Assembly (NCBI GenBank): GCA_013791785.1
Contig: VMTD01000047.1
Span: 1,704-65,703 of the forward strand
Source: Methanobacteriota archaeon
GTDB taxonomy: Archaea > Thermoplasmatota > Thermoplasmata > SG8-5
DNA length: 64,000 bases
Direction: 5' to 3'
Shown here: one piece after another, positions 37,100 through 63,783 of the stretch
How the letters are laid out: the number at the start of each line of letters is the position of its first letter
How positions within the stretch are numbered: the first letter of the stretch is position 1
Program-made: the position numbers and the translations under genes
The notes under the pieces: model-generated
The model's input: the letters and a program-made list of their open reading frames with translations, nothing else
The model's database searches: none
What the model was told of the DNA's origin: nothing

Positions 37100-37100
37100 T

Positions 37101-44953: not shown

Positions 44954-46414
44954 TTACAGCTTGCACGTCATATCGTCCGGCAATGCTTCCGGTGATGCAA
45001 TTGCCTTCTTGACGCCCATCAGCTTCTCGTGAATGTCCATTGCGGATTTCCTGCCTGCGCCCATGGCCTCGATGACCGTGGCCATTCCGGTGACGATGTC
45101 GCCCCCGGCCCAGACCCCCTCTTTCGAGGTCTTGCCCCATTCATCCGCGGTGATGTAGCCCCATTTGTTGAGCTCCAGCCCCGGAGTCGAAGTGGTCAGT
45201 AGGGGATTGGCTCCCGCACCTATGGCATTGATCACTAGGTCGCTCTCGATAACATACTCGGAATTGGGAATTAGAATTGGTTTTGAGCGGCCAGATTCGT
45301 CGGGTTCTCCAAGTTCCATCCTCGAGCATTTGAGCCCATTCACCATATTGTTCTCGTCGCCCAGTATCTCGACTGGATTGGTGAGAAGGCAGAGTTTCAC
45401 GCCTTCCTCCTCGGCATGGTGTATTTCTTCGGCTCTTGCTGGCATCTGCTCCCTGGCCCTGCGATAAACTATCGAAACATCCCCGCCCAGCCTGAGTGCG
45501 GTTCTTGCGGAATCCATAGCGACATTTCCGCCGCCGATGACGCATACTTTTTTTCCCCTAACTATTGGCGTATCGTATTCTGGAAATCGGTAAGCCTTCA
45601 TAAGATTGCTTCTGGTGAGGTATTCATTGGCTGAATACATTCCCCCCAAATTTTCCCCGGGAATACCCAAGAACTTCGGCAGGCCTGCGCCAACGCCGAT
45701 GAACACCGCATGGAAGCCTTTTTCAGTTAGTAATTCATCTATTGTAACTGTCTTTCCAACAATCTCGTTGAGCTTGAGATTCACACCGAGCTTCACCAGG
45801 TAATCAACTTCTTTCTCCACAATGTCCTTGGGAAGCCTGAATTCCGGAATTCCGTACATCAGCACGCCACCGGGTTTGTGAAATGCCTCGAAAATAGTCA
45901 CATCATATCCCAGTAGAATCATATCGCCTGCAACTGTCAGGCCTGAAGGCCCCGAGCCAACGACGGCGATTTTCTTGCCGTTGAGCGCTGCCTTAGGGGG
46001 GATTTGGACGAGTTCATGCTCCCTTTCGAAATCTGCTGCGAACCTTTCCAATCTGCCGATTGCTACGGCACGTCCCATCTTGTTCAGGACGCACTGGGCC
46101 TCGCACTGGCTCTCCTGCGGGCACACCCTGCCGCATACCGCGGGAAGTGCATTTGTCTCCTTTATCTTCCTGGCAGCTTCCGCGAATTTTCTCTCTGTGA
46201 TTAACTGGATAAATCCAGGAATGTTGATATTGACCGGGCAACCGCAAACACATGCCGGAACCTTGCACTGAAGGCATCGCTCCGCTTCTTCAACAGCCAT
46301 CTCGGCGTCATAGCCAAGCGGCACTTCCAGGAAGTTCTTCGCCCTTACTTCGGGGGCTTGCTCCGGCATTGGCACTTTATCTTTCCTTCGGGGCTTTTTC
46401 GGTGCAGGGCTCAT
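44954..46414 (-). CDS. nfnB: NfnB/SudA/GltD-family NADPH-dependent FAD oxidoreductase (two [4Fe-4S] + FAD + NAD(P)H sites)
   Basis: CLQCKVPACVCGCP and CGRVCPQESQCEAQC clusters; VVGSGPSGL and GGGNVAMD dinucleotide motifs. Confidence 0.8.
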   Translation of the reverse strand: MSPAPKKPRRKDKVPMPEQAPEVRAKNFLEVPLGYDAEMAVEEAERCLQCKVPACVCGCPVNINIPGFIQLITERKFAEAARKIKETNALPAVCGRVCPQESQCEAQCVLNKMGRAVAIGRLERFAADFEREHELVQIPPKAALNGKKIAVVGSGPSGLTVAGDMILLGYDVTIFEAFHKPGGVLMYGIPEFRLPKDIVEKEVDYLVKLGVNLKLNEIVGKTVTIDELLTEKGFHAVFIGVGAGLPKFLGIPGENLGGMYSANEYLTRSNLMKAYRFPEYDTPIVRGKKVCVIGGGNVAMDSARTALRLGGDVSIVYRRAREQMPARAEEIHHAEEEGVKLCLLTNPVEILGDENNMVNGLKCSRMELGEPDESGRSKPILIPNSEYVIESDLVINAIGAGANPLLTTSTPGLELNKWGYITADEWGKTSKEGVWAGGDIVTGMATVIEAMGAGRKSAMDIHEKLMGVKKAIASPEALPDDMTCKL

Positions 46415-47241
46415 TTCTTCGCCTCCTCAACATACTTTTCGAGTGAACATTTCTCTTCTGCCAGATAAATTTTCTGGCGTGAAGTAAGTAAATTCCAGTC
46501 AACCTGGTGCCCATCGAATTCTGGCCCATCAATGCAGGTGAATTTCGTTTCATTGCCGACATTCACGCGGCAACCGCCGCACATGCCTGTGGCGTCAATC
46601 ATTATGGAGTTCAAACTGACTATTGTCTTGACTCCGAACGGTTTCGTGGTAAACGTGCAGAATTTCATCATCGGGATTGGGCCTATTGCATAGACGACCG
46701 CGACCTTCTCTCTCTCGCATATTTCCTTCAGTGGTTCCGTTACGAGGCCTTTTCTTCCGAATGTTCCATCGTCCGTCGTAATAATATGCTCGTCGCTCAC
46801 ACCGGCTAGCTTGTCTTCCCAGAAAAGAAGCTCCTTGGTTCTGGCACCCTGGATGGAGATTACTTTGTTGCCTGCCTTCTTGAGTTCTCTGGCAATCGGG
46901 TAGATGGGGGCGGTCCCGACGCCGCCGGCAACCATCACGACAGTGCCGTAATTCTTGATTTCGGAAGCATGACCCAGCGGTCCCACGAATGCATAATATG
47001 AATCGCCTGCCTTCATCGCGGCAAGTTTGTAAGTGGACGTGCCAATCGTCATGAAGACAATTGTAATTGTGCCCTTTTCCCTGTCGAAATCGGCTATAGT
47101 AAGGGGAACGCGTTCTCCCTTCTCATCCGGCATGACAACCAAAAACTCGCCGGCTTTCGCTTTCCTGGCTATCTCAGGAGCTTCGACCACCGCTTCGTAA
47201 ATGGTGGGGACAAGCTCCTTCATGCTCAGTATCTTGGACAT
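46411..47241 (-). CDS. nfnA: NfnA/SudB-family PyrK-like FAD + 2Fe-2S subunit (start moved to the second Met, which has an RBS)
   Basis: ferredoxin-reductase fold motifs; C-terminal CGGCRVNVGNETKFTCIDGPEF 2Fe-2S; aggagttgacccatATG. Confidence 0.75.
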   Translation of the reverse strand: MSKILSMKELVPTIYEAVVEAPEIARKAKAGEFLVVMPDEKGERVPLTIADFDREKGTITIVFMTIGTSTYKLAAMKAGDSYYAFVGPLGHASEIKNYGTVVMVAGGVGTAPIYPIARELKKAGNKVISIQGARTKELLFWEDKLAGVSDEHIITTDDGTFGRKGLVTEPLKEICEREKVAVVYAIGPIPMMKFCTFTTKPFGVKTIVSLNSIMIDATGMCGGCRVNVGNETKFTCIDGPEFDGHQVDWNLLTSRQKIYLAEEKCSLEKYVEEAKK

Positions 47242-47396
47242 ATGGGTCAACTCCTGGGGGTAGGCAATCATGATTTCTTATTTATAAGCTTTCCAGGAAA
47301 CATTTTTGGCATACCTAAAACTGTTTCCATTATTGGCTCATAGCATGGGTCATCGTAGGCATTGGCCTCTAAGCAATCTTCAGAGAATTCCGTGGT

Positions 47397-49082
47397 TTAA
47401 TCGGGTATGGTAGAAGAAGCCACTTTCAATTTCCCTTTCTGTGCCATGTAAATATTGTACCCGCCGCTTATATTCTTGCATTTGAATCCGTTCTGGACCA
47501 TCATTCTGTAGGCTATGTATCCTCGCAAGCCAATAGCGCAGTATATGTTATACGTCTTGGTCTTGTCAAGTTCTCCCAGCCGTTTTCGAAGTTCATTTAG
47601 TGGAATGTGTGTAGCTCCCTCGAGAATAGGATATATCTCAATCTCTTCATTATCCCGCACGTCCAATAACTTTTCAGTGTTATGATCTATGGAATCCACT
47701 TCATTCCAGTGAATGTTTTCCACATCTTTTCTAAGAATGTTGCTGGCAACGAATCCAGCCATGTTCACCGGGTCCTTGGCCGAGGAGAACGGAGGTGCGT
47801 ACGCTAGTTCCAGCTCTTCAAGGTCGTAAACAGTCATGCCTGCACGAATGGCCGTTGCAATAATGTCTATACGCTTATCAACGCCATCCATGCCCACTAT
47901 CTGTGCTCCCAGTATCTTACCATCATCCGGGGCGAATAATAACTTGATATTCATCATCCGGGCACCAGGGTAATAAGCTGCGTGGGAGCCGGATTCCGTA
48001 TAAGAGGCAATATAAGGAATATTGTTGCGTTTCAGGCTTTTCTCATTGTTTCCTGTAAGGGCGACGGTCATCTCGAACACCTTGACAACCGCTGAACCCT
48101 GGGTTCCCTTGTAAGTAGAATTTCTTCCGAATATATTATCTGCGACGATACGGCCCTGTTTGTTCGCGGGACCGGCAAGCGGAATCATTGCTGGTTGACC
48201 GGAAATGAAGTCTGTTACTTCTACAACGTCCCCAGCAGCGTAGATATTGGGATCTGAGGTCAGCATATTCTTGTTTGTCTTTATTCCGCCACGCTCGCCC
48301 ATTTCAAGTCCGGAAATCTTTGCCAGCTCATTGTTTGGTCTAACGCCAATTGAAAGAATGACCATGTCGGTTTCCAACTCGGCACCACTCTTGGTTTTGA
48401 CCACTGTTTTGCTGCCTTTCTTGTGGAATGAGTCGACTGCATCCGATAAATGAAGGTGACAGCCATGATCGATGATATGTGAATGTACAATCGATGCCAT
48501 TTCGAAATCCACCGGAGGCATGACCTGGTCCAACATCTCGACGATAGTAACCTCCAGGCCCAGGGCGATAAGATTCTCTGCCATCTCCAGTCCTATGAAT
48601 CCTCCTCCTATTACAACTGCAGATTTGGTTTTGTTCTTGTCGATATATGCTTTGATTATGTCCGAGTCCGGAATTGTCCAGAGGGTGAATACCGAGTCAA
48701 GATTGATGCTTTCTAATGGTGGTTTGATTGGTTGGCCGCCTGGACACAGGACTAATTTGTCGTAACTCTCCGTGTAAGTTTCATTAGTCTTCAGGTTATT
48801 GACAGTAATTTCCTTCTTTTCTTTGTCTATATCGACGACCTCATTGAATGTTCTCACATCAATATTAAATCTATCCTGAAGAAGTTCAATAGTGGTCACC
48901 AGCAGGTCATCTCTATTTTTTATCTCATCGCCGATGTAATATGGCAATCCACAGTTTGCAAATGAAATAAATTCTCCACGTTCAAAAAGAATTATCTCTG
49001 CATCTTCGCTCAACCTGCGCGCTCTCGTGACAGTACTTGCGCCACCAGCGACGCCCCCTACAACCAATACTTTAATTGACAT
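47397..49082 (-). CDS. CoA-disulfide reductase / NADH oxidase family flavoprotein with a C-terminal rhodanese domain
   Basis: VVGGVAGGAS FAD motif; redox Cys in SFANCGLPY; second Rossmann VVIGGGFIGLE; C-terminal rhodanese with active-site CAIGLRG; RBS gggaggt. Confidence 0.8.
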   Translation of the reverse strand: MSIKVLVVGGVAGGASTVTRARRLSEDAEIILFERGEFISFANCGLPYYIGDEIKNRDDLLVTTIELLQDRFNIDVRTFNEVVDIDKEKKEITVNNLKTNETYTESYDKLVLCPGGQPIKPPLESINLDSVFTLWTIPDSDIIKAYIDKNKTKSAVVIGGGFIGLEMAENLIALGLEVTIVEMLDQVMPPVDFEMASIVHSHIIDHGCHLHLSDAVDSFHKKGSKTVVKTKSGAELETDMVILSIGVRPNNELAKISGLEMGERGGIKTNKNMLTSDPNIYAAGDVVEVTDFISGQPAMIPLAGPANKQGRIVADNIFGRNSTYKGTQGSAVVKVFEMTVALTGNNEKSLKRNNIPYIASYTESGSHAAYYPGARMMNIKLLFAPDDGKILGAQIVGMDGVDKRIDIIATAIRAGMTVYDLEELELAYAPPFSSAKDPVNMAGFVASNILRKDVENIHWNEVDSIDHNTEKLLDVRDNEEIEIYPILEGATHIPLNELRKRLGELDKTKTYNIYCAIGLRGYIAYRMMVQNGFKCKNISGGYNIYMAQKGKLKVASSTIPD

Positions 49083-49275
49083 GATTTTACCTCCCATATT
49101 CACAATTTTGCGCTATGATATGCATCAATGTATATGATGGAGGGTTGAAGTTAGACACAATATATAAATTTTTATATCTCATTATTCAGATATAAATTTA
49201 ACATTGATATATTACTGCACAAATGCCGAGAACGCTCAGTCCTTCAGGGCTGAGATGAATCGGGGAGCACTCATC

Positions 49276-50334
49276 CTATTCTCCCCTTTCCCTTTCTATC
49301 AGGGCCAATTTTCTCTCTTTTATTACACCAAGACATACCTTCTGCTGGTCGATCGTGGCAGTTACTCTCGGTGACAAGTAGGTCTTTTTCATTGCCCCGA
49401 AACACTCATCTGGGAATATTTCATGCAGATGTTCTTCCCATTTAAAATGCTCCTCAACGTTGGGGAAAGTACCAAAATACAACAAATTATATCTTCCTGA
49501 GTGGCCACGATAAGCTATGGGGATGCTGCAGTGATTTTTTATGTATTCATATATTCGTTCTTTGCACTTATTTAGTCTGACAAAACAAAATACAAGTACG
49601 TAATCTGGTGGAACGAAGAACCTGGGAAATCGACACAATGGTCTTGAAATGATCCCCTCCTCCTTGAATTTTTCTATTCGCCGTTCAATCGTTCTCCTGT
49701 GAGTGTTTAATTTATTTGCTAAAAGGTGCTCATTGGTTTTGATTGCCTCTCCCCGAAGTAATTTTTTTAATATTTTGAAGCCGAGTTCCTTTATTTTATA
49801 TCCATTGATCACCAGTTCATTATTTTCTTTAAATGCTTTTTCCAGACAATAAATGCTTGAATTCGGATCATATTTGATACGAAGTTTATTATCTAAGAAT
49901 AGGACATCAGCAGGAAACCTGTTCTCCAACGGAGGTAAAATATTATCACTCACCAATCGTTCCTTCCATGTATAATAGGAAGACATATCCTTATGAAATT
50001 CGAATAATAATGTATTATAACCTTCGTCCCATGATCTAAAAGAAGCGAAGATAGATTCATCTTCGAGAAGGAACTTTTCCACCTGCTCTGTTTTTGGAAG
50101 ATCTGCTTTAACGACTGCAAAAAGAGGCCGTTCGTTAAATACTTCAGTAAAAGGATAATAGGGGCCAACAATAATATTATTCTGATAAAGTTCGTCGACC
50201 TGGGTCTTGATTGTGTTCCTATGTTTATCCAAACTTTTTGAAAGGGCGCTAATATTAACACTCACTCCATTTCCTGACACTATGTTCTCCAATATCTCAA
50301 GGTTTAACTTGTCGTTTAGCAAATCAGTCATCAA
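49276..50334 (-). CDS. putative transcriptional regulator with two winged-HTH-like segments, transcribed divergently from the hybrid hydrogenase operon
   Basis: LEILENIVSGNGVSVNISALSKSLDKHRNTIKTQVDEL and ELGFKILKKLLRGEAIKTNEHLLANKLNTHRRTIERRIEKFKEEGII HTH-like stretches; 215-bp AT-rich divergent intergenic region. Confidence 0.5.
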   Translation of the reverse strand: MMTDLLNDKLNLEILENIVSGNGVSVNISALSKSLDKHRNTIKTQVDELYQNNIIVGPYYPFTEVFNERPLFAVVKADLPKTEQVEKFLLEDESIFASFRSWDEGYNTLLFEFHKDMSSYYTWKERLVSDNILPPLENRFPADVLFLDNKLRIKYDPNSSIYCLEKAFKENNELVINGYKIKELGFKILKKLLRGEAIKTNEHLLANKLNTHRRTIERRIEKFKEEGIISRPLCRFPRFFVPPDYVLVFCFVRLNKCKERIYEYIKNHCSIPIAYRGHSGRYNLLYFGTFPNVEEHFKWEEHLHEIFPDECFGAMKKTYLSPRVTATIDQQKVCLGVIKERKLALIERERGE

Positions 50335-50549: not shown

Positions 50550-52322
50550 ATGAACATAATAAAATCAAATGATAATAATGACATTAGTGCTGATATATCC
50601 TCAAAACCCCGAGTAGGATTCTTTGATTTTGCAAGTTGTGAAGGGTGCCAACTTCAAATCGCCAACCTCGAAGAGGAAATTTTGGATGTTGTCGATCGAC
50701 TGGAGATTGTATCTTTTCGTGAGGTCATGAAAAATCACTCTGATGACTATGACATTGCATTTATTGAAGGTTCAATCCACAGGCCAATAGACGAGGAGCG
50801 TCTGAAAGACATACGCTCTAGAGCCGCCATCCTCATCGCTCTGGGGGACTGTGCGTGTACTGGTAGCGTGAACAAGCTTCGCAATGACTGGTCTGTGGAC
50901 AATGTCAAAGCTGAGGTGTACAGGGGTGCTGAGGCCGCCATGAAGAACAACGATTTCTTCGATATATTCCCGACAAAGAGGCTCGACGAAGTCGTTGATG
51001 TTGACTTTTACATTCGTGGATGCCCTGTCAGGAAGGAGCAGGTGCTCTACTACATTAAGCGCCTATCCTCCATGCCACCGCACAAGAATCTGGATCTGAG
51101 ATTTGGTGTCGTACCCAGGGACATTGAAAAAGATGTGCGTTCCATAATCCAGTACAATCCACAAAAGTGTATATTGTGCAGACATTGCGAGATAATATGC
51201 AATGACATTCTAAACGTCCATGCTATAGGGATAACGAATAAAGGAAATGAATCTATTGTTTCCACTCCTTTCGATATCGGGCTGGACAATAACAAGTGCA
51301 TATCATGTGGCCAGTGCCTGGTAAATTGTCCTGTGGGTGCATTCACATCTTCCTCATCCGTGGAGAGAGTCCTGGAACTCCTTGATGATCCAGAAAACTT
51401 TGTGGTGTTCGTCATAGATCCAATTGCAGTGGCTTCGGCCATGGAGATTCTGCCTACAGAGAATACGCAACTCAGACCGGTGATGGGGAGCCTGATTGCT
51501 GCCCTCAGGGACATGAATGTCAAGAAAGTGATTGATTTCACTCACTTTGGTTATCTGTCACTGGCCGCACAGGGCGAGCATGTGAAAACCCACAAGGATA
51601 TGACCTTTACCTCATGGTGTCCCAGCGCCCACAGCTACATAGAAAAGTTCCTTCCCGAGTTCAAGAAACATATTCACAAAGAAACGTCCCCGGAGTACCT
51701 GATGCTGAAAGCATTTAGAAAATGGTACGGTGATGAGAATCTCAAGATAGTGTTTCTTTCCCCTTGCATAGTTCATAAAGGCAATCCTGATTTCGACGCG
51801 GTCCTCACTGCCAGGGAGCTTCCCGGCCTGTTGAAATCCAGGGCGATTGATTTGGATTTCTATGACCCGGAGAAGGGTGCGTTCGATTGTGAACTTGGTC
51901 TGTCCAGTGTTTATGTCAAGGGCGCAAGTAGTGATTATACTTACTCATTGCCCATAATCGAGATTGCCTACATGAGCAAGTTCAACAACCTGGACGCAGG
52001 GTTAGCTGTTACCACCATAGGCGATTATGCCCATGAACTGGCCTTTGACAGCGAGGAGGGCTTTTTCAACGCTCTTGTGATCGAGGATATTACCAGGGCA
52101 AGTAAATACCTGAAAAAAGACATCAGGAAGTACAATGTTGTAGAACTCTATCCGTGTTTCCATGGTTGCTTGACCGGTGGGGGTCAGGTTCCCACAACGT
52201 CCATGGACCTGCTAAATAAGCGTCGCGACCTCCTGAAAAATTATAAAGGCGAGTGCAAGGCCAAGGATTTGTTCGTTTCCCAGATAATTTCTGCATATGA
52301 TTCGATTAAGGAGGTGGAGTGA
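50550..52322 (+). CDS. fusion protein: [NiFe]-hydrogenase small-subunit (proximal-cluster) domain + 2x[4Fe-4S] ferredoxin-like + [FeFe]-hydrogenase H-cluster domain
   Basis: FDFASCEGCQ / GDCACTG / IRGCP; CILCRHCEIICN + CISCGQCLVNCP; TSWCP (C357), SPCIVHK (C406), ELYPCFHGCLTGGGQVP (C536, C540). Confidence 0.75.
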   Translation: MNIIKSNDNNDISADISSKPRVGFFDFASCEGCQLQIANLEEEILDVVDRLEIVSFREVMKNHSDDYDIAFIEGSIHRPIDEERLKDIRSRAAILIALGDCACTGSVNKLRNDWSVDNVKAEVYRGAEAAMKNNDFFDIFPTKRLDEVVDVDFYIRGCPVRKEQVLYYIKRLSSMPPHKNLDLRFGVVPRDIEKDVRSIIQYNPQKCILCRHCEIICNDILNVHAIGITNKGNESIVSTPFDIGLDNNKCISCGQCLVNCPVGAFTSSSSVERVLELLDDPENFVVFVIDPIAVASAMEILPTENTQLRPVMGSLIAALRDMNVKKVIDFTHFGYLSLAAQGEHVKTHKDMTFTSWCPSAHSYIEKFLPEFKKHIHKETSPEYLMLKAFRKWYGDENLKIVFLSPCIVHKGNPDFDAVLTARELPGLLKSRAIDLDFYDPEKGAFDCELGLSSVYVKGASSDYTYSLPIIEIAYMSKFNNLDAGLAVTTIGDYAHELAFDSEEGFFNALVIEDITRASKYLKKDIRKYNVVELYPCFHGCLTGGGQVPTTSMDLLNKRRDLLKNYKGECKAKDLFVSQIISAYDSIKEVE

Positions 52323-52808
52323 GTGGACACCAAAGATAAGTTCATAATTGATACGATACTGGAAAAATTCACCGACATGAAAGACCCTACTTTAATGATA
52401 TTACAGAACATCCAGGAGATACTGGGATGTGTGCGAGAGGAATATCTCACATACGTGGCCGAAAGCAACGGTTATTCTTTGACAGAGTTGTATGGTATAG
52501 TATCATTCTATCCGCAGTTCAGGTTGAGCCCGCCAGGTAAACACACGATCAAGATATGCAAGGGAACAGCGTGCCATGTTCGCGGCGGTGCCGCTATTCA
52601 GAAGAACCTGCAGAACCTCCTTGGAATCAAACCAGGTGATACAACCGAGGACGGTGTTTTCACTCTGGAATCCGTGAGATGTCTGGGATGTTGTGGCCTT
52701 TCCCCGGTCATAATGATAGATAATGAAACCTATGGAAGGGTGAAAACATCAAAACTACAGGAAATTTTGGTCAAGTACAAGGGGGTGAGTGCTAATGAAA
52801 ATCAGTAA
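52323..52808 (+). CDS. NuoE/HoxE-like 2Fe-2S subunit
   Basis: CKGTACHVRGG ... CLGCCGLSP; start overlaps the upstream stop; RBS aaggaggtgg. Confidence 0.85.
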   Translation: MDTKDKFIIDTILEKFTDMKDPTLMILQNIQEILGCVREEYLTYVAESNGYSLTELYGIVSFYPQFRLSPPGKHTIKICKGTACHVRGGAAIQKNLQNLLGIKPGDTTEDGVFTLESVRCLGCCGLSPVIMIDNETYGRVKTSKLQEILVKYKGVSANENQ

Positions 52809-55800
52809 TATTTCAGACCTCGACAAAATGGCCAGGGAGGGCGAGGAAAGACTTTACAATACACGTGCCCAGTTGATATTTGGCCTTGGTACATGTGGCA
52901 TTGCAGCCGGCGGTTTGCCTCTGAAGGAATTTGCTGAGAGTTACATTGACGAGAAAAACATCAAGGCAGACATAATCTCGGTTGGCTGCATTGGTATGTG
53001 TCATGCTGAACCCCTGGTAGACGTCAAGCTTCCTGGAAAACCCAGGGTCACATATTCTGAAGTTGACCTAGAAAAGTTGAAGATAATAATCGACGAGCAC
53101 CTAATTGGCGGTACTCCCTCACGGGATATGGCCCTTTGCCAGCTGACCAAGGAGATATCCGAGTGCGATTATGGAATTATTGACGAACCAGACCTTTACG
53201 ATGACATACCAACCTATGAGGAACTCCCATTCTTTTCAAAACAGCGCAGAATAGTCCTGAGGAATTGCGGAATAGTGAATCCAGAGGACATCACAGAATA
53301 CGTGGCCAGAGGAGGATACCGGTCCGCATTCAAGGCTCTTCACGAAGTGGCCAGGGGCGGTATCATTGATGAGATGAAGATATCTGGAATCAGGGGAAGA
53401 GGAGGTGCTGGTTTCCCCACTGGACTGAAATGGGATTTCTGTAGCAGGGCTCCGGGTGATGTAAAGTACATGATTTGCAACGCGGATGAAGGCGATCCCG
53501 GCGCATACATGGACCGTGCTGTCCTTGAAGGTGACCCTCACAGTGTAATAGAGGGCATGGTGATAGGCGCATATGCCATGGGTGCCAGCCAGGGCTATAT
53601 CTACATCAGGGCAGAATATCCGCTGGCCATAGAGCGTCTGAAGAAGGCAATTGAGCAGGCTGAAACGCTTGGCATACTGGGCGATCGAGTTTTAGGTGTG
53701 GATTTCAGTTTCAGGATACACATTCGCGAAGGGGCAGGCGTGTTCGTTTGCGGTGAAGAAACAGCGCTCATCCGTTCCATCGAGGGTAAGAGGGGCGAGC
53801 CCAGGCCCAGGCCTCCGTTTCCGGCGGCCAGTGGTCTATGGGGAAAGCCCACGAACATAAACAATGTAGAGACATGGGCAAATGTGGCCATGATACTCCA
53901 GAAGGGCGGTAAATGGTTCTCCTCAATGGGAACAATGAAAAGTCCTGGCACCAAGGTTTTCTCACTGGTTGGAAAGACCGAACGTGCAGGTCTCGTTGAA
54001 GTGCCCATGGGCATTCCAATGAAGGATATAATATTCGAGATAGGGGGGGGCATCCCGGACGGCAGAAAGTTCAAGGCCGTTCAGACTGGCGGTCCATCGG
54101 GAGGCTGTATACCAGCCGAACATCTGGATATCGGAGTGGATTATGAGAACCTGAAGACCCTGGGTTCGATAGTCGGCTCTGGGGGAATGGTCGTGTTGGA
54201 TGAGGATACTTGCATGGTAGATGTTGCCAGGTATTTTCTTACGTTCACATCCGAGGAATCGTGCGGCAAATGCACACCATGCCGTGTTGGAACGCGAAGG
54301 ATGCTGGAGGTTCTGGACAAAATATGTAATGGCCATGGCGAGATGTCTGACATTGACATTCTGAAAAGTCTTTCAGTCCAGATAAGGGACAGTGCCCTGT
54401 GTGCATTAGGCGGCACCGCGCCCAACCCTGTAATGACGACGATGAAATATTTCATGAACGAGTACCTTGAGCATGTTCAGCTGAAAAAGTGCTCTGCCTC
54501 GGTTTGCGCTGCACTGTTCAAGTCACCGTGTCAGAACACATGCCCTGCAGAGACCAATGTTCCTAGTTACATCCAACTTATCAACGAAGGTAGGTTTGTG
54601 GAAGCCTATGAGGTCAACAGGGAAAACAATCCGTTCCCATCAATTTGCGGAAGGGTGTGTGAGCATCCCTGCGAACCCAGGTGCCAGCGCGGTCAACTTG
54701 ACGAGGCCATTGCCATTCGTGAGCTCAAGAGGTTCTGCTCCGACGAAGCAATCAAGGCAGGCCAACCAGCAAAAATATCAACACTGGAGAAGGTGAACAA
54801 GACCGTTGCCATCGTTGGCGGAGGCCCATCCGGCCTTTCTGCAGCATATTTCCTTGCCAGACTCGGTTACTCTCCAACAGTGTTTGAATCCGCACCAAAG
54901 GCCGGTGGATGGCTGAGATACGGAATTCCAAAATACAGATTACCACACGATGTTATTGACAAGGAAATAGAGGACATAGTCAACCTGGGTGTGGAACTCA
55001 AGACTGGAATTGCAGTTGGCCGTGACGTGACCCTCTCCAAACTTAAAGAGGAGTATGATGCAGTATATCTGGCAGTTGGGGCCCAACTTGATAAGAAACT
55101 CGGATTGGAAGGTGAAAATTTACCTGGCGTTCTTCCTGGATTGCAGGTTCTCAGGGATATCAACTCAGATAAGCCAGTCAATATTGGAGAAAAGACTCTA
55201 ATCATTGGTGGTGGCAATGTTGCAGTTGACGTTGCTCGAACAGCAGTTCGCATGGGCACTGAGGTAACTATCTGCTACCGAAGAGAGGAGCAGGACATGC
55301 CTGCCTACGATGAAGAAATTCAGCATTGCAAGGAGGAGGGCGTTGTCTATCATTTCCTGGTATCTCCCGAGAAATTGATTATAGAGAATGGCAAGGCCGT
55401 AGGCGCAGTATTCCGCAGGAATGTTATGGGTGACTTCACAAAGTGGGGCAGGAGAACGCCAGTGCCCACAGACGAGACATTGGAGGTCAGGGCAGACAGC
55501 GTTATTGTTGCCATAGGCCAGGACCTTGATGGAAGATTTGCAAAAGATTTCCATGGTGAACTTTTCAGCAAGTCCAACCTGGTAATTGCAGGTGACGGTC
55601 TTGTAACCGGTGACCCCAAGATTTTCGCAGGCGGAGACGCTGTCAGAGGCCCTGCCAGCGTCATTGATGCCATAGCCGATGGTAAGCAGGCGGCCAGAAG
55701 TATAGATATCTTCCTGGGAGGTGAGGATAGGTTTGCAGAGCTGGAGAGGTCCAACTTCAAGGATTACGGAATGGAAGAACCCAAGAACGAGGACACTCTT

Positions 55801-55944
55801 CTACGCCAGTTATCCAAAGAGCTTGATTCCCAGGAAAGAACCTGTGGATTCGAGGAAGTGGTCATGTGCCTGGACGAGGAATGTGCAAAGAAGGAGGCCT
55901 TCAGATGTCTCAGATGCGACCTCAGTGCAGAGGAGGTGAAGTAG
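52789..55944 (+). CDS. NuoF/HoxF-like fused to a GltD/NfnB-like domain (1051 aa), paralog of 33878..37099
   Basis: GIRGRGGAGFPTGLKWDF, ESCGKCTPCRVG, CEHPCEPRCQ, VGGGPSGLSAAYFL, GGGNVAVDVAR. Confidence 0.85.
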   Translation: MLMKISNISDLDKMAREGEERLYNTRAQLIFGLGTCGIAAGGLPLKEFAESYIDEKNIKADIISVGCIGMCHAEPLVDVKLPGKPRVTYSEVDLEKLKIIIDEHLIGGTPSRDMALCQLTKEISECDYGIIDEPDLYDDIPTYEELPFFSKQRRIVLRNCGIVNPEDITEYVARGGYRSAFKALHEVARGGIIDEMKISGIRGRGGAGFPTGLKWDFCSRAPGDVKYMICNADEGDPGAYMDRAVLEGDPHSVIEGMVIGAYAMGASQGYIYIRAEYPLAIERLKKAIEQAETLGILGDRVLGVDFSFRIHIREGAGVFVCGEETALIRSIEGKRGEPRPRPPFPAASGLWGKPTNINNVETWANVAMILQKGGKWFSSMGTMKSPGTKVFSLVGKTERAGLVEVPMGIPMKDIIFEIGGGIPDGRKFKAVQTGGPSGGCIPAEHLDIGVDYENLKTLGSIVGSGGMVVLDEDTCMVDVARYFLTFTSEESCGKCTPCRVGTRRMLEVLDKICNGHGEMSDIDILKSLSVQIRDSALCALGGTAPNPVMTTMKYFMNEYLEHVQLKKCSASVCAALFKSPCQNTCPAETNVPSYIQLINEGRFVEAYEVNRENNPFPSICGRVCEHPCEPRCQRGQLDEAIAIRELKRFCSDEAIKAGQPAKISTLEKVNKTVAIVGGGPSGLSAAYFLARLGYSPTVFESAPKAGGWLRYGIPKYRLPHDVIDKEIEDIVNLGVELKTGIAVGRDVTLSKLKEEYDAVYLAVGAQLDKKLGLEGENLPGVLPGLQVLRDINSDKPVNIGEKTLIIGGGNVAVDVARTAVRMGTEVTICYRREEQDMPAYDEEIQHCKEEGVVYHFLVSPEKLIIENGKAVGAVFRRNVMGDFTKWGRRTPVPTDETLEVRADSVIVAIGQDLDGRFAKDFHGELFSKSNLVIAGDGLVTGDPKIFAGGDAVRGPASVIDAIADGKQAARSIDIFLGGEDRFAELERSNFKDYGMEEPKNEDTLLRQLSKELDSQERTCGFEEVVMCLDEECAKKEAFRCLRCDLSAEEVK

Positions 55945-56628
55945 ATGTCGTCAAGTTCATTCAAGATAATGATTACCATAGATGGAAATGAAATTGCATG
56001 CAAGCCTAACCAGACCGTTCTGGATGTGGCTATAAAGAACAACATAGACATCCCAACACTTTGCTACAATCCACTCTTCAGCGAGCACAGGATAGGTGCA
56101 TGCCGGATGTGTCTTGTGGAGATAGTAGCCGGCGGACGACCCGGGTTACAGACCAGCTGTACATTGCCTGTTTCCTCGGGGCTGTCCGTGTCAACGACCA
56201 GTGAAGCAGTGTTCCAGACAAGAAGAACGGTTGTTGAACTTCTGCTTTCCGAACATGTTCAGGATTGCCGGAACTGCATTAAAAGCGGTGATTGCAGCTT
56301 TGCCAAGCTGTGTAGAGATTATGATGTTAACGGGGTGTCAGTGTGTGCGGAGTGCCCGAATCAGGAGGAGGGGTGCCTGCTTTCCAGAGGCGTGCTATGC
56401 ATGGGTCCTATAACTTACGCTGGCTGTAATGCCTATTGCACCAGGGAAGGGTACAGATGCGAGGGCTGTCACACAGTCATGGTCAATGAGGACATCCTAC
56501 GATTTGGACTGAAGGCCTACAAGGACCAGGGATTCGGCAAGGACGAAATTCTGGAAGCGGCAAAGGTGTTCTCTTTTGATTCAGTAAAGAAGCTTGAAAA
56601 GATTATGATAGAGGAGGAATTCGCATGA
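55945..56628 (+). CDS. HoxU-like 2Fe-2S/4Fe-4S electron-transfer subunit
   Basis: DIPTLCYNP..GACRMCLVEI..TSC (2Fe-2S); HVQDCRNC; CAECP; start overlaps the upstream stop. Confidence 0.7.
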   Translation: MSSSSFKIMITIDGNEIACKPNQTVLDVAIKNNIDIPTLCYNPLFSEHRIGACRMCLVEIVAGGRPGLQTSCTLPVSSGLSVSTTSEAVFQTRRTVVELLLSEHVQDCRNCIKSGDCSFAKLCRDYDVNGVSVCAECPNQEEGCLLSRGVLCMGPITYAGCNAYCTREGYRCEGCHTVMVNEDILRFGLKAYKDQGFGKDEILEAAKVFSFDSVKKLEKIMIEEEFA

Positions 56629-57923
56629 GCGAAATAAACATCAATGTGGAGCATCTGACCAGGGTCGAGGGTCACGGTAACATAGTACTCAATGCGAAGG
56701 ACGGAACCGTGGAGAATGTACAGTGGCAGGTCTCCGAGGCTCCCAGGCTCTTCGAGGCCTTTGTCAGGGATAAACCATATCATCAACTTGCCCAGATAAC
56801 TTCCAGAATATGTGGAATATGCTCCATCGGCCATACTCTTGCCTCTCTCAAGGCAACGGAAGCCGCAATGGGCATCGAGATATCGGAGCAGAGCCAGATA
56901 TTGCGAAGATTGGCCATACACGGCGAGAATATGCAGAGCCACATCCTTCATGTGGGCTATCTTGTGGCACCGGACATGTTCGGTGTTGGCAGTGTCATAC
57001 CCATGGTGGAGACCCATACCGATGCAGTGCTGGCAATTGTCAACCTGCACAGGCTTTCCAATGAATATTCTGACCTGATATGCGGCCGCACAACACATCC
57101 AACCAACCTTGTGCCAGGCGGTATTTTCAAAACTCCCTCACCGATAAAGCTGAAGCAGATGAGGCAGAGACTGGTTGACGCTGTTCCCACTGCAAATGCT
57201 GTTGCCGAGGTCGTGCTGGCCAATGCCCACGCACTTCCGGATTTCACAAGGGAAACAGAATTCATTGCACTTACCAGCGATGATGAATATGCCCTTTACG
57301 ACGGTGAAGTTGGCTCGACTGACACCGGCAGGCATTCTGTAGATGATTACCTGTCCTTGACAAATGAATTCGTGGTACCTCAATCAACAGCCAAGTATAC
57401 CAAACACAACAGAGATTCATATATGGTGGGTGCTCTTGCAAGGCTTAACCTGAATTACAATCAGCTCCATCCTCTGGCAAAATCATGGTCCGATAAGTTC
57501 GGCCTGAAGCCGGTAAACCACAACCCGTTCATGAATAATGTTGCCCAGCTTGTTGAGTTTGTTCATTCAATAGAGGATTCAATTGCCCTTATTGACAAGC
57601 TCTTTGAGACCGGGCTGAAGAAAGAGCCAACTCCCAAGATAACTCCGAAAGCTGGCCGAGGCATAGGAGCAGTCGATGTACCCCGTGGAATCCTGTTCCA
57701 CGATTATACCTATGACGAGAAAGGAATATGCCAGAAGGCCAATTGCATTATTCCCACCAACCAGAACCACAACAACATTCAGAAAGATTTCGAGGTTTTT
57801 GCACCGACTCTGCTGGACAAATCGGAAAAGGAAATTGAACTGAACTTGGAGATGCTTGTCAGGGCCTATGACCCATGCATATCTTGCTCGACCCACTATC
57901 TTAATGTAGAATGGAAAAAATAG
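56625..57923 (+). CDS. [NiFe]-hydrogenase large subunit (group 3-like), with no separate small-subunit gene in its operon
   Basis: RICGICSIGH N-terminal and DPCISCSTH C-terminal Ni-Fe ligand motifs; ~75% identical to 61900..63282. Confidence 0.85.
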   Translation: MSEININVEHLTRVEGHGNIVLNAKDGTVENVQWQVSEAPRLFEAFVRDKPYHQLAQITSRICGICSIGHTLASLKATEAAMGIEISEQSQILRRLAIHGENMQSHILHVGYLVAPDMFGVGSVIPMVETHTDAVLAIVNLHRLSNEYSDLICGRTTHPTNLVPGGIFKTPSPIKLKQMRQRLVDAVPTANAVAEVVLANAHALPDFTRETEFIALTSDDEYALYDGEVGSTDTGRHSVDDYLSLTNEFVVPQSTAKYTKHNRDSYMVGALARLNLNYNQLHPLAKSWSDKFGLKPVNHNPFMNNVAQLVEFVHSIEDSIALIDKLFETGLKKEPTPKITPKAGRGIGAVDVPRGILFHDYTYDEKGICQKANCIIPTNQNHNNIQKDFEVFAPTLLDKSEKEIELNLEMLVRAYDPCISCSTHYLNVEWKK

Positions 57924-58341: not shown

Positions 58342-58905
58342 ATGGAAAGCGTAACAAAAAAATTAGCACATGAAGAAAAGATGCATGATTTAAGTGGGAT
58401 AGAAGAACTTATAAAATCTTGTGGAGAAGGAAATGGCCTTGCACAACAAGAAGCGCGTATTGCCCTCGAAAACATCGGAGAGGCAGCAGTAGAACCCATC
58501 ATTCAGGCTCTTCTGCACTCTGAAAATCCTATCATCCGGTGGAGGGCCGCAGAGGCTCTTGGGCATATAGGTGGTCCTAGAGCAATAGAGCCATTGATAC
58601 AGGCATTAGCGGATAAGGAGACTTCCGTCCAATGGAGAGCCATAGAGGCGCTTGCAGATATTGGAGAACCCGCAATGGATTCCTTATATTTTGCTGCGGA
58701 AAATGAAAACGTGGAAATCCGATGGGGTGCCACGAGGGCTGTCAAGGACATCAAAGCGAAAATATGCATGGAAGAAAATAAATGTCTGAGTGCAAAGATG
58801 GAAGATATATGCTCTGAAAAGATTGAGATGTGTTCAGTTTGTAAGAAATACCCCGTAGTGAACTTCGGTTACTGCATTGAATGTTCAGGAAGAAGAGGAA
58901 TATAA
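58342..58905 (+). CDS. HEAT/PBS-lyase repeat protein with a C-terminal zinc ribbon
   Basis: repeated (E)ALG.IG...A...L..AL.D motif x3; CSVCKK...CIECSG. Confidence 0.6.
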   Translation: MESVTKKLAHEEKMHDLSGIEELIKSCGEGNGLAQQEARIALENIGEAAVEPIIQALLHSENPIIRWRAAEALGHIGGPRAIEPLIQALADKETSVQWRAIEALADIGEPAMDSLYFAAENENVEIRWGATRAVKDIKAKICMEENKCLSAKMEDICSEKIEMCSVCKKYPVVNFGYCIECSGRRGI

Positions 58906-61116: not shown

Positions 61117-61898
61117 TGACAAAACCAAGAGTAGCATTTTTCGACTTTTCCAGCTGTGAGGGCTGCCAGCTTCAGGTCGTGAACCTGGAGGAAGCCATAC
61201 TCGATGTCCTGAAACTGATAGACATAGTCGAGTTCAGGGAGGCCATGAAAGAATCCTCAACAAAATACGACATCGCAATAATCGAAGGTTCGATAACCCG
61301 ACCGATTGATGTTGAGAGAATCAAAAAGATAAGGGAAAGAGCCAGCATCCTCATCGCTATGGGTGCATGCGCTCACCTCGGTGGCGTCCAGCGCATGGGA
61401 AACAAATGGACTCCTGAGGAGAACAAAGCCGAAGTTTACAAGAGACATCCTGGTTCAGAGATAACCAAGGGCGATGCTAACCCCTACTTCGCACAGCCGA
61501 GACACAGGGCGGTCGACGAAATAGTGAAAGTCGATGCAACCATACCCGGTTGTCCGATAGACTCTAATGAGTTCGCCAGGATATTGATTGCACTTCTTCA
61601 GGGCAAGAAACTGCCAATACCGGATTATCCAGTTTGCGTCGAATGCAAGAAGAACGAGAACATATGCGTGTTCGAAATTGGAGGATTCTGCATGGGCCCA
61701 ATAGCCAGAGCAGGGTGTGGGGCACCATGTCCGACCCATGGCGGTGAGTGCGAGGCATGCCGTGGTTACGTGGATCACCCGCACACCCAGGCACATAACG
61801 AAGTACTTAAAAAATATGGCCTCACACCGGAACAGATAATGAACCGGAAAACCATGTACACATATCGGTATGTTGAAGAAGCCAAAGGAGGTGAATAA
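61116..61898 (+). CDS. [NiFe]-hydrogenase small subunit (group 3b HydD-like); track start 61023 is over-extended
   Basis: FDFSSCEGCQ, GACAHLGG, IPGCP proximal-cluster motifs plus CVECKK..CMGPIARAGCGAPCP..CEAC medial/distal clusters; ATG overlaps the upstream stop (TAATGA). Confidence 0.85.
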   Translation: MTKPRVAFFDFSSCEGCQLQVVNLEEAILDVLKLIDIVEFREAMKESSTKYDIAIIEGSITRPIDVERIKKIRERASILIAMGACAHLGGVQRMGNKWTPEENKAEVYKRHPGSEITKGDANPYFAQPRHRAVDEIVKVDATIPGCPIDSNEFARILIALLQGKKLPIPDYPVCVECKKNENICVFEIGGFCMGPIARAGCGAPCPTHGGECEACRGYVDHPHTQAHNEVLKKYGLTPEQIMNRKTMYTYRYVEEAKGGE

Positions 61899-61899
61899 T

Positions 61900-63333: not shown

Positions 63334-63783
63334 ATGAACAGAGTAGCGGTTATCGGCATTGGCAACATTCTCATGTCAGACGATGGCGCAGGAGTAAAGG
63401 TACTGGAGCTTTTATTCCCATTACCGAAAGGAGTGGTCATTATCGAACTCGCCACCGGAGGCATGACCCTGTTGCACCAGTTTGACGGTCTGGATAAGGC
63501 CATCATAATCGATGCAGTGGACTTCGGCGGCAAGCCTGGCGAGGTGCGTGTTTTTAAACCTGAGGATGTAACATCCATCAAGACAGTAGGGTATTCCCTC
63601 CATGACCTGGATATCCTGAAGGTGCTGGAACTGGCTGGGAGGATGGGCACCCTGCCGAAGGCGGTTTTCATTGCAGCCATACAGCCCGCCAGCCTGGAGA
63701 TGGGGGAAGGCTTGAGTCCCGAGGTGGAAGGGGCGCTGCCGGAGCTGGCAGCGCGGGTGATGAAATTGCTCCCGGAAACCTGA
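63334..63783 (+). CDS. hydrogenase maturation endopeptidase (HycI/FrhD/HoxW family)
   Basis: VIGIGNILMSDDGAGVKV N-terminal motif and size (149 aa) typical of hydrogenase C-terminal processing proteases. Confidence 0.8.
   Translation: MNRVAVIGIGNILMSDDGAGVKVLELLFPLPKGVVIIELATGGMTLLHQFDGLDKAIIIDAVDFGGKPGEVRVFKPEDVTSIKTVGYSLHDLDILKVLELAGRMGTLPKAVFIAAIQPASLEMGEGLSPEVEGALPELAARVMKLLPET

What the first reader, a model, noticed from the sequence alone, without database searches (positions are those of the whole stretch)
51609..52190. H-cluster domain of the hybrid has a TSCCP to TSWCP substitution (proton-relay Cys replaced by Trp) while all four cluster-ligating Cys are kept
All four H-cluster Cys equivalents are retained, so cluster binding looks intact. 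In canonical group-A [FeFe] hydrogenases the first Cys of TSCCP is the proton-transfer residue next to the 2Fe subsite. Here it is Trp, and the Glu of MPCxxKxxE is not conserved (SPCIVHKGN). This pattern is reminiscent of sensory or slow [FeFe] hydrogenases. It could mean the H-domain acts as an H2 sensor or redox regulator of the NiFe site rather than as a fast catalyst.
Basis: partly seen in the sequence, partly recalled or inferred. Interest (0 to 1): 0.55.

Follow-up and report, generated by a model that had tools for sequence, protein, structure and literature searches.

The report
Trp hallmark of hybrid hydrogenase subunit
The Trp-for-Cys change is real, but it is a near-invariant trait of an already published family of archaeal "hybrid" [NiFe]/[FeFe] hydrogenase subunits rather than a peculiarity of this genome, and it raises the question of whether the [FeFe]-type domain makes hydrogen in the cell at all.

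Summary
ORF 50550-52322 (590 aa) is a [NiFe] small-subunit domain, then a 2x[4Fe-4S] ferredoxin domain, then an [FeFe] H-domain. Its motif is T354-S-W356-C-P (nt 51609-51623, W = TGG). All four cluster-ligating Cys are kept (C357, C406, C536, C540), and the second motif reads SPCIVHKGN.

The Trp is not an error and not special to this genome. Among about 95 fused homologs, down to 31% identity, 94 have Trp there and one has Phe. No fused protein with TSCCP appeared in a profile search of 1.84 billion representatives.

The operon is fusion, NuoE-like, NuoF+GltD, HydD, then [NiFe] large subunit. This is the published "group F [FeFe] / group 3f [NiFe] hybrid hydrogenase" (Greening et al., Cell 2024). 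The archetype modelled there (UBA147) is 62% identical and also reads SWCP and SPCIVHKGN.

Much more than the relay Cys is missing: M353, K358, E361, M497, Q325 and the E279/S319/E282/R286 proton path are all replaced. The pocket positions are aromatic-rich and bulkier.

My best reading is that the intact [NiFe] site does the H2 chemistry, while the H-like domain carries a side-branch [4Fe-4S] cluster or a weak, non-canonical site. Published in-vitro activity of a homolog argues against a dead site. No evidence found for the sensor idea.

The parts
50550..52322 (+). HyhS-HydA fusion subunit (590 aa) of a group F / group 3f hybrid hydrogenase
   Evidence: Pfam hits are Oxidored_q6 (aa 30-171), Fer4 (aa ~200-266) and Fe_hyd_lg_C (aa 292-544). 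It is 62% identical to the UBA147 archetype. AF2 mean pLDDT is 84, and the best structural matches are TmHydA, TkHydA and CpI.
50601..51074 (+). [NiFe] small-subunit (HyhS) domain, aa 18-175, with proximal-cluster Cys (C30, C33, C101, C158)
   Evidence: It matches MvhG, sulfhydrogenase delta and the A. mobile HydS in the PDB. It is 54% identical to the group-3b small subunit at 61023-61898. Invariant or near-invariant Cys are listed.
51135..51353 (+). 2x[4Fe-4S] ferredoxin (F-cluster) domain, aa 196-268
   Evidence: Pfam Fer4_7 and Fer4_6 hits. Invariant Cys are C207, C210, C213, C217, C250, C253, C256 and C260.
51402..52229 (+). H-cluster-like domain, aa 285-560
   Evidence: Pfam PF02906, E = 1e-24. 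pLDDT is above 90 throughout. It scores far below the NCBIfam cut-offs for [FeFe] hydrogenases: 138 bits against 406 for group A.
51609..51623 (+). TSWCP motif; W356 (TGG, 51615-51617) lies at the CpI C299 proton-relay position and C357 is the C300 ligand
   Evidence: W is present in 94 of 95 fused homologs.
51417..51419 (+). D290, an invariant Asp at the CpI A230 pocket position
   Evidence: 95 of 95 fused homologs have Asp; group A3 homologs have Ala or Ser.
51759..51785 (+). SPCIVHKGN motif: C406 is the C355 ligand, S404 replaces M353, H409 replaces K358, and K410 is near-invariant but one residue out of register
52146..52190 (+). ELYPCFHGCLTGGGQV motif: C536 and C540 are the C499 and C503 ligands, and Y534 replaces M497
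52323..52808 (+). HydC (NuoE-like [2Fe-2S] thioredoxin-like subunit)
   Evidence: Pfam 2Fe-2S_thioredx, E = 3e-45.
52789..55944 (+). HydB (NuoF-like FMN/FeS module fused to a GltD-like FAD/NAD(P) module, 1051 aa)
   Evidence: Pfam Complex1_51K, NADH_4Fe-4S, Fer4_20 and Pyr_redox_2. NCBIfam nuoF_fam and gltA/GltD families.
55945..56628 (+). HydD conduit subunit: the HydA/NuoG N-terminal [2Fe-2S] part plus the C-terminal FeS part of a [NiFe] small subunit
   Evidence: Pfam Fer2_4 and NADH-G_4Fe-4S_3. NCBIfam FeFe_hydrog_A6 positions 1-126 and sulfhyd_HydD positions 164-254.
56625..57923 (+). HyhL, group 3 [NiFe] large subunit with intact RICGICSIGH and DPCISCSTH motifs
   Evidence: Sequence. Pfam NiFeSe_Hases. 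NCBIfam sulfhydrogenase alpha families. 74% identical to the large subunit at 61870-63282.
49276..50334 (-). Divergently oriented HTH protein, conserved in the same position in UBA147
   Evidence: Weak HTH Pfam hits. A homologous 358-aa ORF lies at L002 6721-7797, directly upstream of the UBA147 fusion gene.
63334..63783 (+). HycI-type [NiFe] maturation protease, at the end of the neighbouring group-3b cluster; the only such protease in the window
   Evidence: Pfam HycI, E = 9e-25.

Best explanation
Shown. The ORF is a new member (62-64% identical to the nearest species-representative genomes) of the published HyhS-HydA fusion family, the group F [FeFe] / group 3f [NiFe] 'hybrid hydrogenase'. 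It is encoded with HydC, HydB(-GltD), HydD and HyhL. The Trp at the proton-relay position is a near-invariant hallmark of the whole family (S-W-C). It comes with an invariant Asp at CpI position 230, aromatic residues at positions 268 and 497, and loss of M353, K358, E361 and Q325 and of the E279/S319/E282/R286 proton path. The four Cys that hold the [4Fe-4S] part are invariant.

Inferred mechanism.
- H2 is activated at the intact [NiFe] site in HyhL.
- Electrons pass from the proximal cluster of the HyhS domain, through the two F-clusters and HydD, to the bifurcating HydBC core.
- The H-like domain holds a [4Fe-4S] cluster on a side branch next to the F-clusters, comparable to the plain A5 cluster that occupies the H-cluster position in Acetomicrobium mobile NiFe-HydA.
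- Its former diiron pocket is largely filled by Trp and other aromatic side chains, so in vivo it is not a canonical H2 catalyst. At most it is a weak one that uses a different proton route.

Confidence by step: identity and family-wide Trp about 0.95; 'cannot use the canonical Cys relay' about 0.95; 'cluster-only or vestigial in vivo' about 0.45.
For: Identity.
- Domain architecture, operon content, 62% identity to UBA147 and the same motifs there, and the family definition in the paper.

Hallmark.
- W in 94/95, D230 in 95/95, four Cys in all.
- All full-length fused representatives in an exhaustive profile search have W or F, none has TSCCP.

Non-canonical pocket.
- All canonical second-sphere and proton-path residues are replaced, while 19 group A3 homologs in the same alignment keep them.
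- The 13 pocket positions carry about 4 aromatic residues against about 1, and about 180-280 cubic angstroms more side-chain volume than group A.
- The protein fails the NCBIfam [FeFe]-hydrogenase cut-offs by a wide margin.

The same operon persists with still more reduced H-like domains.
- These are about 500 aa long, have the 417-423 loop deleted, carry W at 325 and L/M at 358, and mostly give no Pfam PF02906 hit.
- They occur in Hadarchaeota, Balneolales and Planctomycetota.
- More distant HyhS fusions even lack the C300 ligand.

Other support.
- Solved-structure precedent for a plain FeS cluster at the H-cluster position of a NiFe bifurcating hydrogenase.
- The [NiFe] motifs are intact and a HycI protease is nearby.
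- No HydE/F/G-like ORF of 220 aa or more in the 64-kb window.
- Most archaeal genomes with [FeFe] hydrogenases lack these maturases.
Against: - Greening et al. report that one of two group F fusion proteins (Th1, Thermoplasmata SG8-5) evolved H2 at about 5% of the CrHydA1 level after [2Fe]adt was added to lysates. They conclude these are bona fide hydrogenases. By family invariance Th1 almost certainly carries the Trp, so a diiron subsite can apparently be accommodated in at least one long-form member.
- Pocket positions are more conserved than the domain average (long form p = 0.013, short form p < 1e-4). W356, D290, K410 and Q341 (D in short forms) are near-invariant. This points to a constrained site rather than neutral decay, though buried core positions are conserved anyway.
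- In the long-form clade, position 358 is H, Q or Y, all of which could hydrogen-bond a CN ligand.
- I had no model coordinates, so the pocket-filling claim rests on alignment and residue volumes only.
Confidence: 0.5

Rival explanations
1. The H-like domain is a genuine, catalytically competent H-cluster site of an unusual kind, which is the published reading. It binds [4Fe-4S]-[2Fe] in vivo, and protons reach the diiron site by a route that does not use Cys. Candidate residues are the invariant D290, the conserved Q341/E343, or water. The complex would then have two H2-active sites.
For: - In-vitro H2 evolution by Th1 after [2Fe]adt addition.
- All four Cys, P381 (CpI P324), the GGG motif and a near-invariant Lys next to the K358 position are conserved.
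- Pocket columns are under constraint.
- The H-domain fold is predicted with pLDDT above 90 and resembles bifurcating HydA best.
- Groups C/D show that H-clusters can exist without C299 and M353.
Against: - A Trp cannot relay protons and is about 120 cubic angstroms bulkier than Cys, at the residue that in CpI sits next to the adt amine.
- K358, M353, M497, Q325 and E361 are all replaced.
- Short forms in the same operon delete the 417-423 loop.
- The second protein tested (Th2) was almost inactive, and no spectroscopy was possible for group F.
- Maturases are absent from most archaeal genomes with [FeFe] hydrogenases.
Confidence: 0.35
2. One reading: the H-like domain is an H2 sensor or redox regulator that tunes the NiFe site or gene expression, as proposed for group C/D HydS enzymes.
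For: - The loss of C299 and M353 resembles the putatively sensory TamHydS.
- In Planctomycetota the short-form fusion carries N-terminal receiver and histidine-kinase ATPase domains and follows four two-component genes.
- A conserved HTH gene lies divergently upstream here and in UBA147.
Against: - There is no PAS or other signalling domain in this protein.
- It is a stoichiometric subunit carrying the proximal cluster of the NiFe module, inside a complete enzyme operon.
- The kinase-fused relatives have the most degenerate H-like domain, so any sensing there is more simply ascribed to the NiFe site or to the cluster redox state.
- The reported Th1 activity is far above that of sensory enzymes.
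Confidence: 0.08
3. Artefact: the TGG is a sequencing or assembly error of a Cys codon (TGT or TGC), or the gene is decaying, or another Cys supplies the relay.
For: TGG differs from TGT or TGC by one base.
Against: - W is found at this column in 94 of 95 independent homologs from many assemblies, including the published archetype.
- The ORF is intact and the domain is confidently folded.
- No other conserved Cys is present in the domain.
Confidence: 0.01

Closest known systems
Group F [FeFe] hydrogenase fused to group 3f [NiFe] small subunit (HydA-HyhS hybrid hydrogenase; Greening et al., Cell 2024, PMC11216029)
   Same: It has the same fusion architecture and the same five-gene cluster of fusion, HydC, HydB with a glutamate-synthase-like domain, HydD and HyhL. 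It is 62% identical to the modelled archetype from UBA147, with the same SWCP, SPCIVHKGN and YPC..GCLTGGGQ motifs and the same upstream HTH gene.
   Different: It comes from a different, unsampled species; the best species-representative genome is 64% identical. The main text of the paper speaks of conserved Cys ligands and a 'true' catalytic subunit and does not mention the Trp or the missing second sphere. I could not see its Figure S4 logos.
Acetomicrobium mobile electron-bifurcating NiFe-HydABCSL (PDB 7T2R; Feng et al. 2022, PMC8880783)
   Same: A NiFe small and large subunit are attached to HydABC-type bifurcating subunits. The position of the H-cluster is occupied by a plain FeS cluster (A5) at the end of a dead-end branch.
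   Different: There HydS and HydA are separate proteins, and HydA has lost the H-cluster-binding motif altogether. Here the small subunit is fused to the F- and H-domains, the four Cys are all kept, and HydB carries an extra GltD-like module.
Putatively sensory group C/D [FeFe] hydrogenases (TmHydS, TamHydS)
   Same: The relay Cys is naturally absent (Ala137 in TamHydS), as are the pocket Met residues and the group-A proton path. Turnover is low.
   Different: Those enzymes have a small residue rather than Trp at the relay position. They carry a C-terminal cluster and PAS domain and are not fused to a NiFe small subunit. The group F H-domain is a separate deep lineage.
Prototypical and bifurcating group A [FeFe] hydrogenases (CpI, TmHydA, TkHydA1)
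   Same: The fold of the F- and H-domains is shared (Foldseek E = 1e-25 to 1e-21). The four cluster Cys, P231, P324 and the GGG motif are also shared.
   Different: TSCCP becomes TSWCP, MPCxxKxxE becomes SPCIVHKGN, and M497 becomes Y. The proton path is absent. The protein scores 138 bits against the 406-bit cut-off of the NCBIfam group A model.
Eukaryotic Nar1/NARFL (IOP1) proteins
   Same: These have an H-domain fold that keeps the four Cys and binds only a [4Fe-4S] cluster, with a non-Cys residue at the relay position. This rests on my own knowledge and was not tested here.
   Different: They are cytosolic FeS-assembly factors, not part of a hydrogenase complex. As far as I recall they keep Met and Lys in the second motif, so loss or retention of second-sphere residues is not a strict predictor of diiron binding.

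Membership tests
Group F [FeFe] / group 3f [NiFe] hybrid hydrogenase (HydA-HyhS fusion) | N-terminal group 3 [NiFe] small-subunit domain fused to a C-terminal [FeFe] H-domain in one polypeptide | tested here: met
   Pfam Oxidored_q6, Fer4 and Fe_hyd_lg_C in one 590-aa ORF. PDB sequence matches to MvhG/HydS for aa 18-175 and to HydA for aa 183-573. Foldseek agrees.
Group F [FeFe] / group 3f [NiFe] hybrid hydrogenase (HydA-HyhS fusion) | Contiguous genes for HydC (NuoE-like), HydB (NuoF-like with glutamate-synthase-type domain), HydD (NuoG-like conduit) and a group 3 [NiFe] large subunit | tested here: met
   ORFs at 52323-52808, 52789-55944, 55945-56628 and 56625-57923 with the expected domains.
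Group F [FeFe] / group 3f [NiFe] hybrid hydrogenase (HydA-HyhS fusion) | Sequence relationship to named members | tested here: met
   62% identity over residues 8-587 to the fusion protein of Methanomassiliicoccales archaeon UBA147 (L002). This is the genome used as the group F example in the paper.
Group F [FeFe] / group 3f [NiFe] hybrid hydrogenase (HydA-HyhS fusion) | H2 evolution after insertion of synthetic [2Fe]adt | not testable with these tools
   Reported for one of two homologs (Th1) in lysates. It is not known for this protein.
Prototypical group A [FeFe] hydrogenase | Signature motifs TSCCPxW, MPCxxKxxE and ExMxCxxGCxxGGGQP | tested here: not met
   The motifs here read TSWCPSA, SPCIVHKGN and ELYPCFHGCLTGGGQV. 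The 19 group A3 homologs in the same alignment keep C299, M353, K358 and E361 without exception and M497 in 18 of 19.
Prototypical group A [FeFe] hydrogenase | Proton pathway C299-E279-S319-E282-R286 | tested here: not met
   The equivalents are W356, Q341 and H376. E282 aligns with H344 or the neighbouring E343, and R286 is deleted. The alignment around positions 279-286 is less certain than at the motifs.
Prototypical group A [FeFe] hydrogenase | Curated family score (NCBIfam TIGR02512 and NF040763) | tested here: not met
   138 bits against a cut-off of 406, and 161 bits against a cut-off of 765.
Sensory group C/D [FeFe] hydrogenase (HydS) | C-terminal extra [4Fe-4S] motif and PAS domain, encoded as a stand-alone regulator | tested here: not met
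   No PAS or other signalling domain is present, and the protein ends about 45 residues after GGGQ. The gene is the first of an enzyme operon.
Sensory group C/D [FeFe] hydrogenase (HydS) | Relay Cys and pocket Met replaced by small residues | tested here: inconclusive
   M353->S resembles group D, but C299->W and M497->Y are bulky replacements not described for groups C/D.
NiFe-HydABCSL-type bifurcating [NiFe] hydrogenase (Bfu family) | NiFe small and large subunits together with HydA/B/C homologs in one cluster | tested here: met
   The A. mobile small subunit and HydA both appear among the PDB sequence matches.
NiFe-HydABCSL-type bifurcating [NiFe] hydrogenase (Bfu family) | HydA lacks the residues that coordinate the H-cluster | tested here: not met
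   All four coordinating Cys are present and invariant in the family.
NiFe-HydABCSL-type bifurcating [NiFe] hydrogenase (Bfu family) | Coupled NAD(H)/ferredoxin-dependent bifurcation | not testable with these tools
   This can only be inferred from the NuoE/NuoF-type subunits. The extra GltD-like module suggests NADP(H) may also be involved.

The most novel reading that the evidence does not exclude
The '[FeFe] hydrogenase' domain of all group F hybrid hydrogenases, including the published archetype, is not an H2-activating site in vivo. It would be a Trp- and aromatic-plugged, [4Fe-4S]-only relic, or a repurposed redox or structural module. The celebrated '[FeFe]/[NiFe] hybrid' would then be a NiFe-driven Bfu-type enzyme that has kept a fossil H-domain, caught at several stages of decay: long form, short form, and forms with only three Cys.
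Probability: 0.4. Interest if true: 0.55.

Novelty: new member of a known kind. Interest (0 to 1): 0.3.

Why it matters
The gene cluster is another example of a published family, so its existence is not news.

Every fused HyhS-HydA protein I could find has Trp (once Phe) where all working group-A enzymes need Cys, and also lacks the Lys, Met and Glu second sphere. The accessible text of the describing paper does not discuss this.

The observation bears directly on whether 'hybrid' hydrogenases really have two H2-active sites. It also suggests a simple experiment: W356C or W356A variants, with infrared detection of the diiron ligands. If the site does work with Trp, it would be a natural example of H-cluster catalysis without the Cys relay. 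If it does not, the hybrid concept needs revising.

Tried and rejected
- Sequencing error or pseudogene: rejected by ortholog comparison.
- A nearby Cys taking over the relay: rejected, as no other Cys in the domain is conserved.
- K410 as a direct equivalent of K358: both HMMER and MAFFT place it at K359, one residue out of register, so I treat it as unresolved.
- Short forms as recent derivatives of the long form, which would have argued for decay: the HyhS-domain tree interleaves the two. This turned out to reflect near-identical N-terminal domains joined to very different H-like domains, 92% against 25% identity. That is recombination or gene conversion, so no polarity can be read from it and I dropped the argument.
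- Supplementary tables of the Cell paper, which hold the Th1 and Th2 sequences and the motif logos, are not held as text. I therefore could not confirm directly that the active Th1 protein carries Trp.
- Literature searches for any discussion of a Trp at this position in group F found nothing beyond the Cell paper.
- Model coordinates are not returned by the structure tool, so the cavity could not be measured. Only fold and confidence were obtained.
- HydE/F/G in the window: none among ORFs of 220 aa or more. A 64-kb window says little about the genome.
Full report
**1. What is in the sequence**

The region lies in one ORF, 50550-52322 on the + strand, of 590 aa. Pfam finds three parts:
- a [NiFe] small-subunit domain (Oxidored_q6, aa 30-171);
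- a two-cluster ferredoxin domain (aa ~200-266);
- the C-terminal domain of the [FeFe]-hydrogenase large subunit (PF02906, aa 292-544, E = 1e-24).

The DNA at 51609-51623 reads acc tca tgg tgt ccc, which is T354-S-W356-C357-P.

HMMER alignments to the solved bifurcating HydA1 of T. kivui (8a6t, E = 3e-41), to T. maritima HydA and to CpI give these equivalences:
- W356 lies opposite the first Cys of TSCCP (CpI C299).
- C357, C406, C536 and C540 lie opposite the four cluster ligands C300, C355, C499 and C503.
- SPCIVHKGN lies opposite MPCTSKKFE.

A separate MAFFT alignment agrees. It included CpI, whose sequence I entered from memory; its numbering was checked and matches the fragments printed.

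**2. The Trp is a family hallmark**

A search of about 5.8 billion proteins returned about 95 full-length fused homologs at 31-91% identity. They fall into three groups:
- a long-form clade containing the query (about 570-590 aa);
- a 580-aa Thermoplasmatota clade;
- a large short-form group (about 500 aa) whose H-like domain mostly no longer hits PF02906.

At the C299 column, 94 of 95 have Trp and one has Phe. The four ligand Cys are present in all. Nineteen canonical group A3 HydA proteins in the same alignment keep C299, M353, K358, E279, E282, R286, S319 and E361 without exception and M497 in 18 of 19.

A profile search that reads every one of 1.84 billion representatives found no fused protein with TSCCP. 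The additional representatives read T-W-C and P-W-C. No other Cys in the H-like domain is conserved.

**3. What it is**

The downstream genes are:
- a NuoE-like [2Fe-2S] protein (52323-52808);
- a 1051-aa NuoF-like protein fused to a GltD-like module (52789-55944);
- a 227-aa conduit protein (55945-56628);
- a group 3 [NiFe] large subunit with intact RICGICSIGH and DPCISCSTH motifs (56625-57923).

This is exactly the five-gene cluster that Greening et al. (Cell 2024, PMC11216029) defined as the hybrid of a group F [FeFe] hydrogenase with a group 3f [NiFe] hydrogenase. Its defining feature is the HyhS-HydA fusion.

A scan of species-representative genomes found the paper's own example, Methanomassiliicoccales archaeon UBA147, at 62% identity. 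The UBA147 protein reads FASWCPSAS, LISPCIVHKGN and ELYPCLGGCLTGGGQ, and it has the same divergent HTH gene upstream. The window is archaeal, because it encodes an ABCE1/RLI protein. The best hits are Thermoplasmata. This is a new member of a known family.

**4. How far the site departs from a working H-cluster pocket**

Besides C299->W, the query has M353->S, K358->H, no E361, M497->Y, Q325->E, S232->I, I268->F and A230->D. The proton-path residues are Q341 (for E279) and H376 (for S319), and R286 is deleted.

Across the family:
- D at position 230 is invariant.
- Position 268 is always F or Y.
- Position 497 is mostly Y or F.
- In all 61 short forms, position 325 is Trp and the 417-423 loop is deleted.
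- K410 is near-invariant, but it sits one residue after the K358 position.

The 13 positions that line the diiron subsite in CpI (a list from my knowledge of the literature) carry about four aromatic residues here against about one in group A. They also carry about 180-280 cubic angstroms more side-chain volume. That is of the order of the diiron unit itself; this is my estimate and a rough alignment-based heuristic.

The protein scores 138 bits against the 406-bit cut-off of the NCBIfam group A model. The domain itself is well folded: pLDDT is above 90, and the best structural matches are TmHydA, TkHydA and CpI.

**5. Mechanism**

Three things are shown:
- The canonical Cys relay and proton path are absent.
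- The [4Fe-4S]-binding Cys are under absolute conservation.
- The [NiFe] module is intact. HyhL is 74% identical to the large subunit of the neighbouring group-3b cluster, which ends with a HycI protease.

My preferred reading, at about 0.45, is inferred. The NiFe site is the H2 catalyst. Electrons run through the proximal cluster, the F-clusters and HydD to HydBC. The H-like domain holds a side-branch [4Fe-4S] cluster.

Support for this reading:
- The solved A. mobile NiFe-HydABCSL has a plain FeS cluster (A5) at the H-cluster position, at the end of a dead-end branch.
- The identical operon persists in Hadarchaeota, Balneolales and Planctomycetota with much more reduced H-like domains.
- Still more distant HyhS fusions have lost one of the four Cys.
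- Most archaeal genomes with [FeFe] hydrogenases lack the HydEFG maturases.

Evidence against it:
- Greening et al. measured H2 evolution at about 5% of the CrHydA1 level for one of two group F fusions after adding [2Fe]adt to lysates. No spectroscopy was possible.
- Pocket columns are more conserved than the domain average.

I therefore keep 'genuine but non-canonical H-cluster site' as a strong rival, at about 0.35.

This protein has no signalling domain and is a core subunit of the enzyme. The only hint is a Planctomycetota relative in which receiver and kinase domains are fused to the short form.

**6. Comparison with what is known, and novelty**

The family, its operon and the retention of the Cys ligands are published. 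The main text of that paper calls the domain a 'true' catalytic subunit and never mentions the Trp or the missing Lys, Met and Glu residues.

The addition from this work is modest:
- The Trp is essentially universal in the fusion family.
- The family extends into bacteria and into shorter, more degenerate forms.
- The pocket is aromatic-rich.

Interest is low to moderate, mainly as a pointed and testable question about whether hybrid hydrogenases have one or two active sites.

Noticed in passing
P0007 (= L001 8001-9716) versus P0028; by extension window 50601-51074: A long-form and a short-form fusion protein are about 92% identical over the HyhS domain, and nearly identical over the first ~150 residues. 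They are only 54% identical in the ferredoxin domain and 25% in the H-like domain. This points to recent recombination or gene conversion of the N-terminal domain between two deeply divergent paralog types. A HyhS-domain tree interleaves long and short forms accordingly.
   Followed up: partly
L081 9001-11610 and flanks (Planctomycetota metagenome contig): The short-form fusion carries N-terminal response-regulator receiver and histidine-kinase ATPase domains (869 aa). It sits in the same operon, with a HycI protease. The operon is preceded by four two-component-system genes and a NicO nickel transporter gene.
   Followed up: partly
window 55945-56628: HydD looks like the reciprocal product of a domain swap. 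Its first ~130 residues match the N-terminus of HydA/NuoG, and residues 131-220 match the C-terminal FeS part of the sulfhydrogenase small (delta) subunit. The fusion protein carries the complementary halves.
   Followed up: partly
window 33878-40774: A second, paralogous NuoE/NuoF/GltD fusion (1073 aa) is followed by a BfuA-like 2Fe-2S/4Fe-4S protein (37074-37805). Next come a protein with a glutamate-synthase domain (37757-39391) and a glutamate dehydrogenase (39440-40774). This may be a Bfu-type NAD(P)H/ferredoxin enzyme linked to glutamate metabolism.
   Followed up: no
window 59209-63783: A complete group-3b-like [NiFe] hydrogenase cluster lies just downstream. It has a fused beta/gamma-type FeS-flavoprotein (635 aa), a small subunit, a large subunit and a HycI protease. 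Its large subunit is 74% identical to the hybrid operon's HyhL, and its small subunit is 54% identical to the HyhS domain of the fusion.
   Followed up: partly
window 44954-47271 (- strand) and 47397-49103 (- strand): An NfnAB-like pair (a GltD-type 486-aa protein plus a 286-aa DHOD-B-type FeS flavoprotein) and a CoA-disulfide-reductase-like protein with a rhodanese domain lie just upstream of the hybrid operon. A homolog of the 286-aa protein also lies upstream in UBA147.
   Followed up: no
P0125-P0144, P0178, P0100, P0101 (434-501 aa): More distant HyhS fusions have an even more reduced H-like domain in which the first ligand Cys (CpI C300) is usually replaced (P-x-S). The Brockarchaeota protein P0101 instead keeps P-C-C.
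   Followed up: partly
P0124 (4122 aa): A giant predicted protein contains seven tandem copies of a canonical H-domain, with FTSCCASW repeated every 444 residues. This may be an assembly artefact or a polyprotein.
   Followed up: no
P0103, P0106, P0112, P0113, P0117-P0119: Seven of 19 group A3-type HydA homologs read TSCSP: the relay Cys is kept but the C300 ligand column is Ser. This could be a misalignment or a known subgroup. I did not examine it.
   Followed up: no
window 58342-58905: A small HEAT/PBS-lyase-repeat protein with a Cys-rich C-terminus lies directly after HyhL. A HEAT-repeat gene also lies near the Planctomycetota operon.
   Followed up: no
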